A DNA stretch of 43,773 nt, taken from IMG/VR virus record IMGVR_UViG_2718218402_000005, one strand, 5' to 3'. Shown one piece after another: positions 169-38,508 of this stretch. The notes under the pieces are model-generated. The model saw only the letters and a program-made list of their open reading frames with translations. It had not been told where the DNA came from and did not search any database. Made by a program: the position numbers and the translations under genes. How positions within the stretch are numbered: the stretch's first letter is position 1; the number at the start of each line of letters is the position of its first letter. Source of the stretch: a virus (Duplodnaviria > Heunggongvirae > Uroviricota > Caudoviricetes).

Positions 169-227
169 TAAAAAGGGCGGCAGAGCAGTCACGGAGTAAA
201 ACTGATACCGCCAAACGTCACCAGAAA
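169..227 (-). ncRNA. dicF: DicF-type small regulatory RNA with intrinsic terminator
   Basis: Reverse complement of 174-227 reads TTTCTGGTGACGTTTGGCGGTATCAGTTTTACTCCGTGACTGCTCTGCCGCCC followed by a T-run (169-173), matching DicF as I recall it; lies downstream of the ydfC-like gene on the same strand, as in Qin. Confidence 0.6.
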
Positions 228-567
228 ATTGATAACAGAGGGCGTTGCAGCGGGGTTGTCACTTAAGCGTATGGTCAACCTGACAACCCGGTGTCCTCAA
301 CGGGGAAGGAATAACCCCGCCATACTTACCGCCGCGCCATTTCGCGGATTGCCACAACCGGAAGCGCACGGTCGACGAAAATTTAACGACAGGCTATCTA
401 TGAACCAGCTACCTCGCCGTGCGCTTTCGCGTTATGGTCTGACTTTTCAGGGAAATATCCTTTCAGTAAACTGTCAGTGCCGGATGCTCACCCGTGTCCG
501 GCGCACGCACTCCACCTCACCCGTGGAGAACTCCTTAATTACTAACCTTAGCTTTGTTGATTAGCTA

Positions 568-786
568 CTAACGCGGGTATGTAATCATTCTGGCAATGCT
601 TAATGCCGCTGCTTTTTCCAGATTGGTGATATCCTGCTCCAGAGCGGACAGATTTTCAGCCTGCTTAGCCCTGGCTTCATTGGCCCATTTCAAATCCTGC
701 GCTGCATTAATTTTCTGGCGCATCCACTCATAAAGTTCATCATCGGTATAGTCTGGCGCGATGATGACGGGTTCTCGTTTCTGCAT
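568..786 (-). CDS. ydfC: YdfC-like small prophage protein (72 aa)
   Basis: 72-aa ORF nearly identical to the + strand ORF 38824-39042 that follows dicA-ydfA-ydfB; position and size fit Qin ydfC. Confidence 0.5.
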   Translation of the reverse strand: MQKREPVIIAPDYTDDELYEWMRQKINAAQDLKWANEARAKQAENLSALEQDITNLEKAAALSIARMITYPR

Positions 787-815
787 ACTGATTCCTCGCG
801 GTGCTGTTTCGCTTA

Positions 816-944
816 TCAGCCGTTAGATTTTGCCGAACTGGAAAGCGCCTGTTTAAATTCGTTGAAGCCGAGAGCTTCTTCGCCGTCGGCAAGACCTTCG
901 AAGTATTCTTCGTAAGCCTTTTCCATGATTGTGTCGAAATCCAT
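816..944 (-). CDS. ydfB: YdfB-like small protein (42 aa)
   Basis: Minus-strand ATG at 944 to stop at 816 encodes MDFDTIMEKAYEEYFEGLA...; paralog of 38666-38794; below the 60-aa cutoff of the ORF track; the 801-998 + strand ORF is a shadow. Confidence 0.5.
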   Translation of the reverse strand: MDFDTIMEKAYEEYFEGLADGEEALGFNEFKQALSSSAKSNG

Positions 945-945
945 A

Positions 946-1101
946 TCACTCACCTGAGTTTCTTTCCAGCCAGCGACGGGCACCATTTTCGGTTTTAAAC
1001 GTTTTGCTTTTGGTATACGTCATCGCGGTGAATGTGCCGTCCTGGTTGGGAAACACGCCGTACACCAGAGATTCGTTGTTGCCAAGACCGATAGTATCCA
1101 T
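946..1101 (-). CDS. ydfA: YdfA/YdaF-like DUF1391-type small protein (51 aa)
   Basis: Internal Met of ORF 946-1182 gives MDTIGLGNNESLVYGVFPNQDGTFTAMTYTKSKTFKTENGARRWLERNSGE; paralog 38509-38664; stop abuts ydfB-like start. Confidence 0.5.
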   Translation of the reverse strand: MDTIGLGNNESLVYGVFPNQDGTFTAMTYTKSKTFKTENGARRWLERNSGE

Positions 1102-1286
1102 GTTGACCTCATTTCCCCTTAACGCCGGGGTAGCGGAACAAAAACCTGCTGCATAGTTATTAAAGTTGAACCCTGCCGTCATGTTCTTACGCCTCGGGCT
1201 GGCTACTTAACCCCTGACCACTGCCTGGTAACTCGAAGTATTGCCCTGCGTTCTGCGGGACGGGGTGGGTTGGTATGAAAGAAAGG

Positions 1287-1325
1287 ATACCCATGGGTAT
1301 TTAAAAAGTAAATACCCATGGGTAA
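1287..1325. promoter_or_regulatory. Two copies of palindrome ATACCCATGGGTAT (putative repressor operator) between repressor gene and ydfA-like gene
   Basis: Perfect 14-bp palindrome 1287-1300 and 13/14 copy 1312-1325; related GGGTAT half-sites recur in the divergent promoter region 1801-1860. Confidence 0.45.
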
Positions 1326-1368
1326 TTTTTTTTGATGTGTCTTAACTGGTGACTGGTTGTTTGGTGAG

Positions 1369-1788
1369 TTATGATGCGTTTTGTGCTTTCTTTTTACGGA
1401 TTTCTTCGTAGATCATATTGTAATACTGTTTTTTCTCTTCAAGAGTTTTTAATAAGTTATCCGCTTCACTTTCTGGCAGTTCGTCTAAGAGATCTAAAAA
1501 AATACGTTGTCGTGGCGTTAGAACCCTTGTTTCATAACTGGAGGCTGTGTTCGTTGATGATGAAACGATACCATCCATCCATCCCCGGGGTAACCCAAAG
1601 GACTCTTCTATAATCTCCACCATATCATCAGCGATCCGTTTTTTTCCTTTTTTCCCCTCTGGGTACAACATTCTTGATACATAAGAAGGCTCGCGACCGA
1701 TCTTTCTGGCCACGTTAACCGCTTTACCATCGCATTTCTCATCACGAATTTTGATGAGTTGTTGTCGTCTAAATTCATATTTGTCCAT
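1369..1788 (-). CDS. CI/DicA-position HTH transcriptional repressor (139 aa)
   Basis: Helix-turn-helix-like stretch KAVNVARKIGREPSYVSRML; divergent from a cro-like gene; followed on the same strand by ydfA/B/C-like genes and DicF, the DicA operon layout. Confidence 0.55.
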   Translation of the reverse strand: MDKYEFRRQQLIKIRDEKCDGKAVNVARKIGREPSYVSRMLYPEGKKGKKRIADDMVEIIEESFGLPRGWMDGIVSSSTNTASSYETRVLTPRQRIFLDLLDELPESEADNLLKTLEEKKQYYNMIYEEIRKKKAQNAS

Positions 1789-1800
1789 AGGTAAATAATA

Positions 1801-1888
1801 GATGCGATTACCGCAAGGTAAACAACCTAGGGGTATTGACTTTTGTTTACCTGTGGGTATTCTTTGCTGTGTTTACTAAGGAGTAGCT
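1801..1888. promoter_or_regulatory. Divergent immunity promoter/operator region
   Basis: Intergenic between divergent repressor and cro-like genes; TTGACT 1837-1842 plus GGGTAT half-sites; SD-like AAGGAG before ATG 1889. Confidence 0.4.
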
Positions 1889-2170
1889 ATGGAAGAATTA
1901 AGAATATTTCTCAATTCTCTTTCGTCAGATGAACAGCGTATGTTTGCATGTGAGTGTGGTACTAGCATCGGTTATCTAAGAAAGGCATTGAGTAAAGGTC
2001 AAATCTTAGGGGCATCGTTATGTGTCCTTATTGAGCGAGCCAGTAATGGTGAAGTTACACGTCAGCAACTAAGGCCTTTTGATTGGATGAATATTTGGCC
2101 CGAGCTGGAAGATACCAAAACGTTAACACAACCACTTACTAGGAGCTTGATTCATGAAAATCAAGCATGA
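1889..2170 (+). CDS. Cro/YdaS-like small HTH regulator (93 aa)
   Basis: Divergent from repressor; HTH-like GTSIGYLRKALSKGQ; typical lambdoid immunity-region geometry. Confidence 0.45.
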   Translation: MEELRIFLNSLSSDEQRMFACECGTSIGYLRKALSKGQILGASLCVLIERASNGEVTRQQLRPFDWMNIWPELEDTKTLTQPLTRSLIHENQA

Positions 2171-2579
2171 ACACATCCGCATGGCGATGAATGCCTGGGC
2201 GCGTCCTGATGGCGAAAAAGTTCCAGCAGCTGGAATAACCCAGGCTTATTTTGAGTTGGGTATGACGTTTCCTGAACTGTATGACGACAGCCATCCGGAA
2301 GCCCTGGCTCGCAATACCCAGAAAATTTTCCGCTGGGTAGAGAAAGACACCCCTGATGCAGTTGAAAAAATTCAGGCGTTGTTACCAGCGATCGAAAAGG
2401 CAATGCCACCTTTGCTGGTGGCCAGAATGCGCAGCCACAGTTCAGCTTATTTTCGGGAGCTGGTGGAGACGCGGGAGCGATTGGTGAGAGACGCTGATGA
2501 TTTTGTCGCAGTGGCAATCGCCGGTTTCAATCAGATGAACCGTGGTGGCCCGGCAGGAAATGCTGTGGCAGTACATTGA
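2154..2579 (+). CDS. YdaT-like protein (CII-position, 141 aa)
   Basis: Follows the cro-like gene with overlap; weak similarity to the 173-aa ORF 37116-37637 at the equivalent position in Unit 2 (shared ALLPAIEKAM / ALVPAIMEAI). Confidence 0.4.
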   Translation: MKIKHEHIRMAMNAWARPDGEKVPAAGITQAYFELGMTFPELYDDSHPEALARNTQKIFRWVEKDTPDAVEKIQALLPAIEKAMPPLLVARMRSHSSAYFRELVETRERLVRDADDFVAVAIAGFNQMNRGGPAGNAVAVH

Positions 2580-2643: not shown

Positions 2644-3812
<1,169 letters not shown>

Positions 3813-3903
3813 TGGAGCACCTGTGTTGTTCTGAGGTGAGCATATCACCTCTGTTCAGGTGGCCAAATTCAGTGTGCCACTTCAAGTATCAGAAGAGGTG
3901 AGT

Positions 3904-6934: not shown

Positions 6935-7225
6935 CCTGGCCTGAGGCATTCACAACGGTAGGAATTGCGATGGCGGTGACGCTGGTGGTGTATTCGATTT
7001 GCCGCTGGGGATAAAAACGGTTTGCGGGAAAAGGAGAGTTAAGTAGAATTGCTGCGGGTGCTTGAGGCTATCTGTCTCAGGCATGAACACCAAAAGGCAG
7101 ATAGAGAAAAGCCCCAGTTAACATTACGCGTCCGGCAAGACGCTTAACATTAATCTGAGGCCATATCTATGCTCTACACACGTAGGTTAGCCTCTTACGT
7201 GCCGAAAGGCAAGGAGAAGCAGGCT

Positions 7226-7381
7226 ATGAAGCAGCAAAAGGCGATGCTTATCGCCCTGATCGTCATCTGTTTAACCGTCATTGTGACGGCACTGGTAACG
7301 AGGAAAGACCTCTGCGAGGTACGACTCCGAACCGGCCAGACGGAGGTCGCTGTCTTCACAGCTTACGAACCTGAGGAGTAA
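7226..7381 (+). CDS. hok: Hok/Gef-family type I toxin (51 aa)
   Basis: MKQQKAMLIALIVICLTVIVTALVTRKDLCEVRLRTGQTEVAVFTAYEPEE; the 70-aa ORF 7169-7381 is an in-frame upstream extension. Confidence 0.85.
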   Translation: MKQQKAMLIALIVICLTVIVTALVTRKDLCEVRLRTGQTEVAVFTAYEPEE

Positions 7382-11475: not shown

Positions 11476-11551
11476 GGCCCTTTAGCTCAGTGGTGAGAGC
11501 GAGCGACTCATAATCGCCAGGTCGCTGGTTCAAATCCAGCAAGGGCCACCA
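11476..11551 (+). tRNA. tRNA with anticodon CAU (Met/Ile2-type)
   Basis: Cloverleaf by eye: acceptor GGCCCTT/AAGGGCC, anticodon loop CTCATAA, TTCAAAT T-loop, CCA end. Confidence 0.75.
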
Positions 11552-11558
11552 TCACATA

Positions 11559-11635
11559 CCGCCATTAGCTCATCAGGAAAGAGCGCCAGCTTTCGAAGCT
11601 GGTTGCGCGGAGTTCGGGTCCCCGAAGGCGGTCCA
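11559..11635 (+). tRNA. tRNA-Arg (anticodon UCG), possibly impaired copy
   Basis: Anticodon loop TTTCGAA; one acceptor-stem and one T-stem mismatch compared with the copy at 28652-28728. Confidence 0.55.
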
Positions 11636-11648
11636 TTATCTGTATCCT

Positions 11649-11725
11649 GCGTTGTTAGCTCAGCCGGACAGAGCAATTGCCTTCTAAGCAATCGGTCACT
11701 GGTTCGAATCCAGTACAACGCGCCA
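11649..11725 (+). tRNA. tRNA-Arg (anticodon UCU)
   Basis: Acceptor GCGTTGT/ACAACGC, anticodon loop CTTCTAA, TTCGAAT T-loop, GCCA end. Confidence 0.75.
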
Positions 11726-28561: not shown

Positions 28562-28638
28562 TGGTGCGTTGTACTGGGTTCGAACCAGTGACCGATTGCT
28601 TAGAAGGCAATTGCTCTGTCCGGCTGAGCTAAAAACGC
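28562..28638 (-). tRNA. tRNA-Arg (anticodon UCU), second copy
   Basis: Reverse complement matches 11649-11725 with one acceptor-stem mismatch (T6 opposite C67). Confidence 0.6.
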
Positions 28639-28651
28639 AGAATACCGATAA

Positions 28652-28728
28652 TGGACCGCCATCGGAGACTCGAACCCCGCGAAACCAGCTTCGAAGGCTG
28701 GCGTTCTATCCCGATGAGCTAATGGCGG
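28652..28728 (-). tRNA. tRNA-Arg (anticodon UCG), second copy
   Basis: Fully paired acceptor stem CCGCCAT/ATGGCGG; anticodon loop CTTCGAA. Confidence 0.7.
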
Positions 28729-28735
28729 TATGTGA

Positions 28736-28811
28736 TGGTGGCCCTTGCTGGATTTGAACCAGCGGCCTGGCGATTATGAGTCGCTCGCTCTCACCACTGA
28801 GCTAAAGGGCC
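28736..28811 (-). tRNA. tRNA with anticodon CAU (Met/Ile2-type), second copy
   Basis: Reverse complement nearly identical to 11476-11551. Confidence 0.75.
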
Positions 28812-31956: not shown

Positions 31957-32112
31957 TTACTCCTCAGATTCGTAAGCTGTGAAGACAGCGACCTCCGTCT
32001 GGCCGGTTCGGATTCGTACCTCGCAGAGGTCTTTCCTCGTTACCAGTGCCGTCACTATGACGGTTAAACAGATGACGATCAGGGCGATTAACATCGCCTT
32101 TTGCTGCTTCAT
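31957..32112 (-). CDS. hok: Hok/Gef-family type I toxin (51 aa)
   Basis: MKQQKAMLIALIVICLTVIVTALVTRKDLCEVRIRTGQTEVAVFTAYESEE; upstream leader homology to about 32300. Confidence 0.85.
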   Translation of the reverse strand: MKQQKAMLIALIVICLTVIVTALVTRKDLCEVRIRTGQTEVAVFTAYESEE

Positions 32113-32854
32113 AGCCTGCTTCTCCTTGCCTTTCGGCACGTAAGAGGCTAACCTACGTGTGTAGAGCATAGATATGGCCTCAGATTAATGTTAAGCGTCT
32201 TGCCGGACGCGTAATGTTAACTGGGGCTTTTCTCTATCTGCCTTTGGTGTTGATGCCCGAGGCAGATAGCCTCAAGCACCCGCAGCAATTCTACTTAACT
32301 ACCGTTACCTCGCCAATATGAAATCAATCAGAAAGGTGATCCATAAGAACAACAGCAAGACAATAAATTGCCATTACAGCAGCAATAGCCAGCGCACATT
32401 TGAGAACCAGCACCACAACCTCCTGTATTGGACGTACACCAGTCCTGATAAATATGAGGCTGTCTCGTCAGTGATTCAATACAACTACTGGGTATAGTTT
32501 CTATGATTTTGTTCTGTGGAAATGGAAAACAGCAACCAGTCACCACCAGCACTTCTTTAAACATGCCAAGTCACACGCAAGCCAACATTATAGTTCCCTT
32601 TGAGCGAGCAGATGAAGCTAGCAAAAATATTGATCACTTAGGATGCATTACTAACGTTGCTATGTGTTAACGAACAGGGAGTGGGTCATCAGCATAAATA
32701 TTTATGCAGTAGGTTTCTTTTAGGACTAGATTAATCAAAAACATTTAGATAAAATTATAAAATCAAGAAATTGGTGGCAATTAATCTTTAATTGTGCCAG
32801 CTGAATTTCGTTATTATAGAAGATTAGCTTTTTTTTGAGTGTTTGGAGAGTAAA

Positions 32855-37864: not shown

Positions 37865-37884
37865 ATTGTTAGTCATGACTAACA
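37865..37884. promoter_or_regulatory. 20-bp perfect palindrome TTGTTAGTCATGACTAACAA in the dicC-dicA intergenic region (putative DicA operator)
   Basis: Perfect inverted repeat; related TTAGC...GCTAA half-sites at 37916-37931. Confidence 0.55.
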
Positions 37885-37934
37885 AAATAGATGTTAACAA
37901 AAACATAGTCAATACGATTTAGCATTAGCTAACT

Positions 37935-38342
37935 ATGGAAACAAAAAATTTAACTATCGGCGAACGCATTAGGTATCGTCGGAAAAACCTCAAACACACC
38001 CAAAGGTCTCTTGCTAAAGCCCTGAAAATCTCCCATGTGTCTGTATCACAATGGGAACGGGATGATAGTGAACCTACAGGGAAGAACCTTTTTGCCCTCA
38101 GCAAAGTATTGCAATGCTCACCAACATGGATTCTATTTGGCGATGAAGACAAGCAACCAACACCACCTGTTGAGAAGCCAGTTGCCTTATCCCCCAAAGA
38201 ACTAGAGCTCCTTGAGCTGTTTAATGCACTGCCAGAATCAGAACAGGATACCCAGCTCGCCGAAATGCGAGCTCGAGTAAAAAACTTCAATAAACTCTTT
38301 GAAGAATTACTAAAAGCCCGTCAGCGGACAAATAAAAGATAA
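37935..38342 (+). CDS. dicA: DicA (CI-like HTH repressor, 135 aa)
   Basis: METKNLTIGERIRYRRKNLKHTQRSLAKALKISHVSVSQWERDDSEPTGKNLFALSKVL... matches DicA from memory. Confidence 0.7.
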   Translation: METKNLTIGERIRYRRKNLKHTQRSLAKALKISHVSVSQWERDDSEPTGKNLFALSKVLQCSPTWILFGDEDKQPTPPVEKPVALSPKELELLELFNALPESEQDTQLAEMRARVKNFNKLFEELLKARQRTNKR

Positions 38343-38412
38343 CATCATCAATGAGTTATCTTTTACCACATCAATCATGTTAGCAATAACATACAAAATC
38401 ACTTGACCTATA

Positions 38413-38428
38413 TGTTAGCCATGGCTAA
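38413..38428. promoter_or_regulatory. Palindrome TGTTAGCCATGGCTAA between dicA and ydfA
   Basis: 14-bp perfect palindrome TTAGCCATGGCTAA at 38415-38428 at the same relative position as the Unit 1 palindromes. Confidence 0.45.
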
Positions 38429-38508
38429 TCTTATTTGCATCAACACACCGCACGGTGTTCTCAGCAAACAGTTCCGCTACCCCGGCGTTAAGGGGAAATG
38501 AGGTCAAC

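What the first reader, a model, noticed from the sequence alone, without database searches (positions are those of the whole stretch)
1287..1888. Unit 1 repressor with its own operator palindrome ATACCCATGGGTAT, distinct from the DicA-type sites of Unit 2
Unit 1 has a 139-aa CI-like repressor in the DicA position, with two copies of ATACCCATGGGTAT downstream of its gene and GGGTAT half-sites in its divergent promoter. Unit 2 has DicA with TTGTTAGTCATGACTAACAA (37865-37884) in its promoter and TTAGCCATGGCTAA (38415-38428) at the same position preceding ydfA. Both site types share a CATG core but differ in flanks, consistent with two heteroimmune switches in one locus, each also regulating or terminating before its ydfABC operon.
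Basis: partly seen in the sequence, partly recalled or inferred. Interest (0 to 1): 0.5.

Follow-up and report, generated by a model that had tools for sequence, protein, structure and literature searches.

The report
Prophage repressor and its operator sites
The two palindromes are binding sites (left operators) for a phage repressor, placed on the promoter of a cell-division-inhibitor operon, and three more copies sit in the repressor/cro control region: an ordinary lambda-type immunity switch of a specificity nobody seems to have written up.

Summary
ATACCCATGGGTAT is exact at 1287-1300. A 13/14 copy lies at 1312-1325. GGGTAT occurs at 1831-1836 and 1855-1860.

The core TACC-N4-GGTA occurs four times in the 43.8-kb window (0.29 expected), and all four flank the 139-aa repressor gene. 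A fifth, one-mismatch copy lies between two of them.

The sites form a lambda-like layout:
- OL2 and OL1 sit on a candidate PL promoter (TTTACT-17-TATCCT, minus strand) that reads into ydfA-ydfB-ydfC-dicF.
- OR1, OR2 and OR3 lie over PR and PRM.

The comparative evidence is decisive:
- The repressor's N-terminal domain is 45-80% identical to that of S24-type CI repressors such as phage mEp043 cI.
- In loci from 41 species, most carry the motif at about -73, -48 and -33 from the repressor start codon, and about half (22) as a 25-bp-spaced pair on a downstream promoter.
- The cro gene travels with this set.
- Only the C-terminal domain differs. Here it is DicA-like with no S24 peptidase, so induction is probably independent of RecA cleavage.

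The Unit 2 sites are the published DicA/DicC operators. The two motif sets do not overlap, which supports heteroimmunity. The shared CATG centre is not a conserved feature. A second role for the OL pair as a terminator hairpin is not excluded.

Verdict: a new member of a known kind, of modest interest.

The parts
1287..1300 (.). OL1 operator, ATACCCATGGGTAT (perfect 14-bp palindrome). It fills the spacer and the first 3 bp of the -10 of the candidate PL promoter.
   Evidence: Same position as OL1 in mEp043 and CharmingMan and in 22 species loci.
1312..1325 (.). OL2 operator (minus strand TTACCCATGGGTAT), abutting the -35 of PL. It lies 25 bp centre-to-centre from OL1.
1284..1312 (-). Candidate PL promoter, the analogue of dicBp: -35 TTTACT at 1312-1307, 17-bp spacer, -10 TATCCT at 1289-1284. 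The inferred start near 1277 reads into ydfA-ydfB-ydfC-dicF.
   Evidence: Read. It scores 8 of 12 to consensus, the same as the experimentally known dicBp of Unit 2. The last T of the -10 hexamer is conserved in 22 of 22 related OL pairs, and TTGA/TTTA follows OL2. The start site is inferred.
1326..1333 (.). A8 tract (minus strand) just upstream of OL2, which reads as T8 on the plus strand. It is an A-rich, UP-element-like tract and also the T-run of the plus-strand terminator-like call.
   Evidence: A-rich tracts lie upstream of OL2 in most related loci.
1369..1788 (-). 139-aa repressor gene. The N-terminal HTH DNA-binding domain (about residues 1-75) is of the mEp043-cI type. The C-terminal helical domain (about 86-136) is of the DicA type. 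There is no S24 peptidase domain.
1795..1822 (-). Candidate PRM: -35 TTTACC at 1822-1817 and -10 TATTAT at 1800-1795. The -10 ends 6 nt before the ATG at 1788, which implies a leaderless repressor mRNA.
   Evidence: A -10 placed 6-7 nt before the ATG recurs in nearly all related loci. Leaderless start is inferred.
1808..1821 (.). OR3 operator, TTACCGCAAGGTAA, over the -35 and spacer of PRM.
1823..1836 (.). OR2 operator (minus strand ATACCCCTAGGTTG). It has one core mismatch, GGTT, the same degenerate form as OR2 in most relatives. It abuts the PR -35, and its centre is about -41.5 from the inferred PRM start.
1847..1860 (.). OR1 operator (minus strand ATACCCACAGGTAA), in the spacer and -10 of PR.
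1836..1863 (+). Candidate PR promoter, TTGACT-16-TATTCT, driving cro and ydaT.
1889..2170 (+). cro analogue (93 aa, YdaS-like), 73% identical to mEp043 Cro. It is inherited together with the repressor's DNA-binding domain and the operators.
2154..2579 (+). YdaT, the CII equivalent, near-identical to PDB 3c4r and 8bt1. Its published recognition motif is present at 2147-2164 (TTGATTCATGAAAATCAA).
175..1182 (-). The regulated operon: ydfA (1101-946; a longer form starts at 1182), ydfB (944-816), ydfC (786-568) and DicF sRNA (226-175).
37866..38431 (+). Unit 2 comparison set: the DicA/DicC operator Oc at 37866-37885, a second TTAG..CTAA site at 37919-37932, dicA at 37935-38342, and dicBp (-35 at 38403-38408, -10 at 38426-38431) with the operator TTAGCCATGGCTAA at 38415-38428.
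   Evidence: Papers PMC3441716, PMC10448788, PMC11430063.

Best explanation
Region 1287-1888 is the immunity region of a lambdoid prophage. It works like lambda's CI/Cro switch.

The repressor. The 139-aa protein is a dimeric HTH repressor. Its N-terminal domain recognises 14-bp sites with the core TACC-N4-GGTA.

The left operators. Two sites, OL2 and OL1, lie 25 bp apart just downstream of the repressor gene. They sit on a sigma-70 promoter (PL, the analogue of dicBp). OL1 covers the spacer and part of the -10, and OL2 abuts the -35. Bound repressor should therefore exclude RNA polymerase and keep the toxic ydfABC-dicF(-dicB) operon silent.

The right operators. Three sites lie in the divergent region. 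OR1 and OR2 cover PR, which drives cro and ydaT. OR3 covers PRM. OR2 is intrinsically weak and centred near -42 of PRM, the position from which lambda CI activates its own leaderless transcript. Cro (the YdaS-like protein) is expected to use the same sites in the reverse order.

The C-terminal domain. The repressor carries a DicA-type helical domain instead of an S24 self-cleavage domain. It should therefore not be cleaved through RecA and is probably inactivated some other way, for example by an antirepressor, as Rem does for DicA.

Heteroimmunity. Unit 2 is the classical DicA/DicC switch, with a different DNA-binding domain and TTAG-N6-CTAA sites. The two switches should be heteroimmune.

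Shown here: the sites, their geometry, their conservation and the domain architecture. Inferred: binding, start sites, activation and the induction route.
For: 1. Motif clustering. TACCNNNNGGTA occurs 4 times in the window and only around this gene. A repeat finder independently groups 1289, 1314, 1825 and 1849.
2. Homology of the DNA-binding domain. Residues 1-~75 are 45-80% identical to the N-termini of S24/LexA-family CI repressors. The putative recognition helix EPSYVSRMLY is nearly invariant.
3. Same layout in real phages. mEp043 and CharmingMan have three TACC-N4-GGTA sites between cI and cro, and two on the annotated or putative PL with identical geometry.
4. Same layout across species. 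Among 41 species-level loci (Enterobacterales, Aeromonas, Neisseria, Burkholderiales, Xanthomonadales), most carry the motif at about -73, -48 and -33 from the start codon, and 22 also carry it as a 24-26-bp-spaced pair downstream. There are 59 exact hits in 6,150 bp upstream against 40 in 125,922 bp elsewhere, and most of those 40 are the OL pairs.
5. Promoter signals around the OL pair are conserved. The -10 TA..T has its final T in 22 of 22 pairs, and TTGA/TTTA follows OL2.
6. Cro is co-inherited, at 73% identity to mEp043 Cro.
7. Same geometry as a proven case. The DicA site lies in the spacer and -10 of dicBp. dicBp is repressed 22-fold by DicA (PMC10448788).
8. Mosaic boundaries. DNA homology to phage Tritos and to Unit 2 resumes just downstream of PL, so the operators belong to the immunity-specific patch.
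9. Fold. The AlphaFold model (pLDDT 83.6) has a four-helix N-terminal domain with an HTH. Its nearest PDB folds are Xre-type HTH proteins and the non-cleavable SPC32H Rep repressor.
Against: - There is no binding or transcription experiment for this protein or these sites.
- The PL hexamers are weak (8 of 12), and the consensus scan did not call them.
- Foldseek matches are marginal (best E = 1.8e-3, TM about 0.45), and Pfam finds no domain in the protein.
- The two OL sites also form a 16-bp hairpin with flanking A and T runs. The terminator scan calls it on both strands, so part of the sequence constraint could come from RNA.
- Heteroimmunity is inferred from non-overlapping motifs only. The two repressors share a C-terminal domain (33% identity over 46 aa), and its partner specificity is unknown.
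Confidence: 0.85

Rival explanations
1. Dual use. The OL2-OL1 pair is an operator on DNA. In read-through RNA from PRM and the repressor gene it is also an intrinsic terminator hairpin. That would insulate the toxic ydfABC-dicF-dicB operon from repressor-gene transcription. On the plus strand it would be a T8 terminator against antisense transcripts. This reading is compatible with the best explanation.
For: - The minus-strand RNA folds into a 16-bp stem at -24.5 kcal/mol (z = -6.6), followed by UCCUUUCUUU. The plus strand folds at -30.7 kcal/mol and is followed by U8.
- No other terminator lies in the 44 bp between the stop codon and OL2. mEp043 and CharmingMan, by contrast, have a separate canonical terminator before OL.
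- PL transcripts would start downstream of the hairpin, so only read-through RNA contains it.
- Natural variants often keep the two central 4-mers reverse-complementary while breaking each palindrome: CACA/TGTG in L131, CACG/CGTG, CATA/TATG.
- Mean Watson-Crick pairs of 4 are 2.75 against 2.27 in shuffles (p about 0.02) in the ydfA-type group, and 1.97 against 1.57 (p about 0.008) in the others.
Against: - Any two copies of a palindrome can pair, so the hairpin comes free with two operators.
- The minus-strand U-tract is interrupted.
- Several variants break pairing (CATG/CACA, CACG/TATG), and many family members score 0-1 of 4.
- The shuffle test ignores relatedness. Quasi-palindrome templated mutation could produce apparent compensation without selection.
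- Unit 2 has no hairpin between dicA and dicBp, so insulation is not a general need.
- The A-tract is conserved as an upstream promoter feature even where no hairpin is possible.
Confidence: 0.25
2. The pair at 1287-1325 is only a bidirectional rho-independent terminator between the repressor gene and ydfA. It is not a protein-binding site.
For: The terminator-like call on both strands and the stable hairpins.
Against: - The same 12-bp core recurs three times in the divergent promoter region, where no terminator makes sense.
- Across the 41 species loci the invariant bases are TACC and GGTA in each copy, at fixed distances from the promoter hexamers. Inter-copy pairing of the centres is frequently lost.
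- Phages with a separate terminator still have the pair.
Confidence: 0.03
3. The sites are recognised mainly by the Cro/YdaS-like protein, or by YdaT, and not by the 139-aa protein.
For: - Cro is co-inherited with the sites.
- In CP-933P both PaaR2 and YdaS footprint the same region (PMC8630535).
Against: - In lambda-type switches both proteins share the operators, so this reading is not exclusive.
- The sites track the repressor's N-terminal domain across fusions to two different C-terminal domains.
- YdaT has a different published motif. It is present separately at 2147-2164.
Confidence: 0.05

Closest known systems
DicA/DicC/dicBp switch of the Qin prophage (E. coli K-12), which is Unit 2 of this window
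   Same: - Gene order is the same: cro-like gene | repressor -> promoter with an operator in the spacer and -10 -> ydfA-ydfB-ydfC-dicF-dicB.
- The C-terminal repressor domain is homologous (33% identity; NF007257 positions 81-131).
- The repressor is short with no S24 domain.
- The 14-bp palindromic operator is placed identically on the promoter.
   Different: - The N-terminal DNA-binding domain is unrelated at sequence level: there is no HTH_3 hit, and only 23.9 bits against the 101-bit DicA cut-off.
- The operator arms differ (TACC/GGTA against TTAG/CTAA).
- The Cro family differs (YdaS-like against P22_Cro-like DicC).
cI/cro immunity region of lambdoid phage mEp043 (NC_019706), and Escherichia phage CharmingMan
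   Same: - The repressor N-terminal domain is 65% identical, and Cro is 73% identical to mEp043 Cro (49% to CharmingMan Cro).
- The layout is the same: three sites at OR, two sites at OL/PL, and a -10 placed just before the ATG.
- The operator core is the same, TACC-N4-GGTA.
   Different: - Those repressors carry a C-terminal S24 peptidase domain and so are probably SOS-cleavable. This one has the DicA-type domain.
- They have a separate terminator before OL.
- PL drives N, not ydfABC.
- I found no paper describing their operators.
Phage lambda CI/Cro with OR1-3 and OL1-3
   Same: - Divergent PRM and PR with three operators.
- A weak OR2 centred near -42 of PRM.
- A leaderless repressor mRNA.
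- Operators on a leftward promoter downstream of the repressor gene.
- OR1-OR2 spacing of 24 bp.
These points rest on established knowledge of lambda.
   Different: - Sites are 14 bp, not 17 bp.
- There are two sites at OL, not three.
- OR2 and OR3 are only 15 bp centre-to-centre.
- There is no S24 domain.
- OL and OR are about 0.55 kb apart, not 2.4 kb.
PaaR2/YdaS/YdaT switch of prophage CP-933P (E. coli O157:H7)
   Same: - YdaT is near-identical to the crystallised protein, and its TTGATT-N6-AATCAA site is present.
- Logic is the same, with PR, PRM and PL operators and a leaderless repressor.
   Different: - The CP-933P repressor PaaR2 recognises GTTTAGTAA-type repeats and heads a toxin-antitoxin operon.
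- No solved-structure chain resembles the repressor studied here.

Membership tests
Lambda-type immunity switch (CI/Cro with OR and OL) | Divergent repressor and cro genes with multiple repeated operators over two back-to-back promoters | tested here: met
   OR1, OR2 and OR3 lie at 1847-1860, 1823-1836 and 1808-1821, over PR (1836-1863) and PRM (1822-1795)..
Lambda-type immunity switch (CI/Cro with OR and OL) | The same operators on a second promoter (PL) downstream of the repressor gene | tested here: met
   OL2 and OL1 lie on TTTACT-17-TATCCT. The geometry is conserved in 22 related loci and in two phages..
Lambda-type immunity switch (CI/Cro with OR and OL) | Repressor with a C-terminal S24 (LexA-like) self-cleavage domain | tested here: not met
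   There is no PF00717 hit. The C-terminus aligns with DicA instead. Relatives with the same N-terminus do have S24..
Lambda-type immunity switch (CI/Cro with OR and OL) | Sequence-specific binding of repressor and Cro to the operators, and bistability | not testable with these tools
   Needs EMSA or footprinting and reporter assays.
DicA family (NCBIfam NF007257 / PRK09706) | Full-length match above the curated cut-off (101 bits), with an HTH_3 N-terminal domain | tested here: not met
   Score is 23.9 bits, covering residues 86-136 only. There is no HTH_3 or any other Pfam hit..
DicA family (NCBIfam NF007257 / PRK09706) | Homologous C-terminal helical domain, and position immediately upstream of ydfABC-dicF | tested here: met
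   BLASTP gives 33% identity over 46 aa (E = 1e-7).
mEp043-type repressor DNA-binding domain with TACC-N4-GGTA operators (unnamed; phrog_5736 / phrog_27486) | Conserved N-terminal domain MDKYE..REPSYVSRMLYPEGKKGKKRIAD..LPRGW | tested here: met
   Identity is 45-92% to 19 relatives, with 29 invariant positions..
mEp043-type repressor DNA-binding domain with TACC-N4-GGTA operators (unnamed; phrog_5736 / phrog_27486) | Operator cores at about -72, -47 and -32 from the start codon, plus a 25-bp-spaced pair on a downstream promoter, and a co-inherited Cro | tested here: met
   In the window the cores lie at -71, -47 and -32, and the pair at 1288/1313..
Rho-independent terminator | Stable G+C-containing stem-loop followed directly by a U-run | tested here: inconclusive
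   The stem is 16 bp, at -24.5 kcal/mol on the minus strand and -30.7 on the plus strand. The tail is U8 on the plus strand but an interrupted UCCUUUCUUU on the minus strand, which is the strand of the repressor gene..
Rho-independent terminator | Pairing maintained by compensatory changes among relatives | tested here: inconclusive
   Some variants compensate and some break the pairing. Shuffle p is about 0.02 and 0.008, but it is not corrected for relatedness..

The most novel reading that the evidence does not exclude
Two linked ideas remain open.

1. The OL operator pair may be a dual-purpose element. On DNA it would be a repressor-binding site. In read-through RNA it would be a terminator hairpin that shields the toxic dicBF operon from repressor-gene transcription.

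2. This common cryptic prophage is present in 813 of 5,426 complete E. coli genomes. It carries a non-cleavable version of the same DNA-binding domain that SOS-inducible phages such as mEp043 use, with a near-identical putative recognition helix. It could therefore give its host SOS-proof immunity against that whole group of phages.
Probability: 0.25. Interest if true: 0.5.

Novelty: new member of a known kind. Interest (0 to 1): 0.3.

Why it matters
- It assigns a repressor, a Cro and five operator sites to an immunity type that is common in E. coli but annotated only as 'hypothetical protein' or 'transcriptional regulator'.
- It defines a DNA-binding domain family that Pfam does not cover, and gives its recognition motif, TACC-N4-GGTA. 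The motif is conserved from Enterobacterales to Neisseria and Xanthomonas.
- It shows that immunity specificity at the ydfABC-dicF-dicB operon is swapped as two matched patches: (a) cro, OR and the DNA-binding domain; (b) OL. These patches lie on either side of a conserved C-terminal domain.
- It predicts which prophages control which copy of the DicF/DicB cell-division inhibitors in strains that carry several copies.
- It predicts cross-immunity to mEp043-like phages.
- None of this changes the known paradigm.

Tried and rejected
- Pfam and PDB sequence searches found no family or solved relative for the repressor. The weak ADAR Z-alpha match (E = 0.08) was set aside as chance.
- CP-933P PaaR2 was considered as the repressor's identity and rejected. 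Its operators are GTTTAGTAA repeats, and no solved-structure chain matches the repressor. Only YdaT is shared.
- The first viral-contig scan returned only copies 99-100% identical to the window's repressor and gave no diversity.
- The first genome scan failed because the alignment was too divergent. It worked after DicA and Tritos were removed.
- A literature search for the operator strings found only unrelated primers. The papers that mention mEp043 do not appear, from their titles and abstracts, to deal with its operators; I did not open them.
- The inverted repeat GGTAAACAA-N17-TTGTTTACC (1816-1851) was considered as a separate site. It is explained by the outer halves of OR3 and OR1.
- The shared CATG core as evidence of common ancestry or a shared contact was rejected. 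The centre is variable in the family, and perfect palindromes within the Y-R-Y-R pattern leave only four possible centres.

Full report
**What is in the sequence**

The minus strand of 175-1788 encodes, in transcription order, a 139-aa protein (1788-1369), YdfA (1101-946, or a longer form starting at 1182), YdfB (944-816), YdfC (786-568) and the DicF sRNA (226-175). On the plus strand a 93-aa YdaS-like Cro analogue (1889-2170) and a YdaT/CII analogue (2154-2579) diverge from the repressor gene.

ATACCCATGGGTAT is exact at 1287-1300. A 13/14 copy, ATACCCATGGGTAA, lies at 1312-1325. GGGTAT occurs at 1831-1836 and 1855-1860.

Unit 2 (37.6-39.0 kb) is a true DicA/DicC/ydfABC unit.

**The sites are a family of five, placed on promoters**

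The core TACCNNNNGGTA occurs only four times in 43,773 bp (0.29 expected): at 1288, 1313, 1809 and 1848. A one-mismatch copy at 1824 lies between the last two. A repeat finder groups the same copies without being given the motif.

Reading the minus strand, the downstream pair sits on TTTACT (1312-1307)-17 bp-TATCCT (1289-1284). OL1 fills the spacer and supplies the TAT of the -10. OL2 ends where the -35 begins.

This is the geometry of TTAGCCATGGCTAA on dicBp in Unit 2 (TTGACC-17-TAATCT). dicBp is a proven promoter, repressed 22-fold by DicA (PMC10448788).

In the divergent region:
- OR1 (1847-1860) lies in the spacer and -10 of PR (TTGACT-16-TATTCT).
- OR2 (1823-1836) abuts the PR -35.
- OR3 (1808-1821) covers the -35 of a PRM candidate (TTTACC-16-TATTAT).

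The PRM -10 ends six bases before the ATG, which implies a leaderless mRNA as for lambda cI.

**What the repressor is**

Pfam finds nothing in the protein. NCBIfam matches only residues 86-136, to the C-terminus of DicA, at 23.9 bits against a 101-bit cut-off. BLASTP against Unit 2 DicA gives 33% identity over 46 residues.

The N-terminal ~75 residues are 45-80% identical to the N-termini of 220-240-aa S24/LexA-family repressors, including cI of lambdoid phage mEp043.

The protein is therefore a mosaic: an mEp043-type DNA-binding domain joined to a DicA-type C-terminal domain.

An AlphaFold model (pLDDT 83.6) shows four N-terminal helices with an HTH (helices 23-30 and 34-41), a disordered linker and a C-terminal helical hairpin. 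Foldseek's nearest solved folds are Xre-type HTH proteins and the non-cleavable Rep repressor of a Salmonella phage. The scores are marginal.

**Comparative test**

mEp043 and phage CharmingMan have three TACC-N4-GGTA sites between cI and cro. They also have two on the annotated or putative PL, with the same relation to the -35 and -10.

In 41 loci from different species found with the N-terminal domain, most have the core at about -73, -48 and -33 from the start codon. There are 59 exact hits in 6,150 bp upstream against 40 in 125,922 bp elsewhere. Most of those 40 are pairs spaced 24-26 bp downstream of the gene.

Position by position:
- TACC and GGTA are essentially invariant.
- The central four bases vary, roughly Y-R-Y-R.
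- OR2 usually carries the same GGTT defect as here.
- The base that closes the -10 hexamer after OL1 is T in 22 of 22 pairs.

The upstream regions align from OR1 to the ATG across these taxa.

Cro travels with the set: Unit 1 Cro is 73% identical to mEp043 Cro. This evidence is independent of the window, and it is why I regard the operator assignment as settled short of an experiment.

**Mosaic boundaries**

A DNA alignment of Unit 1, a Salmonella relative, phage Tritos and Unit 2 shows three things:
- The C-terminal domain coding region is conserved between Unit 1 and Tritos.
- The OL/PL stretch differs by immunity type.
- Homology resumes just downstream of PL.

Tritos has a third kind of DNA-binding domain and GTAC-type repeats at the same place. 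Specificity therefore lies in two patches, one holding cro, OR and the DNA-binding domain and the other holding OL. A shared segment lies between them.

**Unit 2 and heteroimmunity**

- TTAGNNNNNNCTAA occurs three times in the window, all around dicA.
- The first of these is Oc, shown in vivo to bind DicA (PMC3441716).
- The DicC ChIP-seq motif is TT(A/C/T)G...C(G/A/T)AA (PMC11430063).
- Neither motif occurs in the other unit.
- The DNA-binding domains and the Cro proteins are unrelated.

Heteroimmunity is the natural inference but is not shown. The common CATG centre carries no weight, because the centre is variable in the Unit 1 family and K-12 Oc itself has CATA.

**The terminator question**

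The consensus scan calls 1288-1324 a terminator on both strands. The RNA folds at -24.5 kcal/mol on the minus strand and -30.7 on the plus strand. Two copies of a palindrome must pair, so this comes free with two operators.

Three facts keep a second role open:
- No other terminator separates the repressor gene from the toxic operon, whereas the S24-type phages have one.
- PL transcripts would start downstream of the hairpin.
- Natural variants often keep the two centres reverse-complementary while losing each palindrome (CACA/TGTG, CACG/CGTG, CATA/TATG). The excess over shuffles is modest (p about 0.02 and 0.008).

Against it:
- Several variants break the pairing.
- The test ignores relatedness.
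- Quasi-palindrome templated mutation could mimic compensation.
- The minus-strand U-run is interrupted.
- Unit 2 manages without a hairpin.
- The A-tract upstream of OL2 is conserved as a promoter-upstream feature across the family.

I give the dual-use reading about 0.25.

**Comparison with known systems and novelty**

The system works like lambda CI/Cro and like DicA/DicC/dicBp. It is not a DicA-family member by the curated model, and it lacks the S24 domain of classical CI. Its closest relatives are the undescribed mEp043-type switches.

I found no paper giving these operators, and the papers that mention mEp043 do not appear from their titles and abstracts to cover them. RefSeq labels the repressor 'hypothetical protein'.

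The module is common: 813 of 5,426 complete E. coli genomes hold at least 80% of 1100-2600.

This is a new member of a known kind. It is useful for annotation and for predicting which repressor controls which DicF/DicB copy, but it is not surprising. Interest 0.3.

Noticed in passing
window 2147-2164: There is an exact match to the published YdaT recognition motif TTGATT-N6-AATCAA (TTGATTCATGAAAATCAA). It spans the ydaT start codon at the end of cro and is the only match in the window. This is the same position as the OM site of CP-933P.
   Followed up: partly
window 2644-3848 (minus strand): An IS3-family insertion sequence (orfA 3510-3848, orfB 2644-3483) sits between ydaT and the replication gene of Unit 1. 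It is absent from the otherwise 99.8% identical prophage of O55:H7 DEC5B (L001), so the early-right operon here is interrupted.
   Followed up: partly
window 7056-7231(+) / 32107-32281(-); 11476-11722(+) / 28565-28811(-); about 39090: The window holds two lambdoid right arms facing each other, with mirrored sok RNAs and tRNA triplets. Unit 2's left arm is cut directly after ydfC by tail-fibre genes. No complete RefSeq E. coli genome contains that junction. This suggests an inter-prophage rearrangement.
   Followed up: no
window 1369-1530 and L003 2180-2340: The C-terminal domain coding region of the repressor is conserved at DNA level between Unit 1 and phage Tritos. The DNA-binding domain, OR, cro and the OL/PL stretch all differ. 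Three heteroimmune repressor types (Unit 1, DicA, Tritos) share one C-terminal domain in front of the same ydfABC-dicF-dicB operon.
   Followed up: partly
L131 1464-1502; L133-L252: In related E. coli prophages the two OL sites are often non-palindromic but exact reverse complements of each other, for example TACCCACAGGTA and TACCTGTGGGTA. This points to a higher-order dyad. Possible causes are an RNA or DNA hairpin, tetramer symmetry, or templated quasi-palindrome correction.
   Followed up: partly
L127 1615-1850 (Serratia odorifera): A relative with the same DNA-binding domain and OR sites has no TACC-N4-GGTA pair within about 1.2 kb downstream of the gene. Instead, the roughly 250 bp after its stop codon holds a canonical terminator followed by several TAGCTA/AGCTAA repeats. 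This may be a recombinant left arm under a different regulator.
   Followed up: no
window 1795-1788 and loci L085-L125: The PRM -10 hexamer lies 6-7 nt before the repressor ATG, with no Shine-Dalgarno sequence, in nearly all 41 species loci. Leaderless repressor mRNA appears to be a conserved trait of this switch family.
   Followed up: partly
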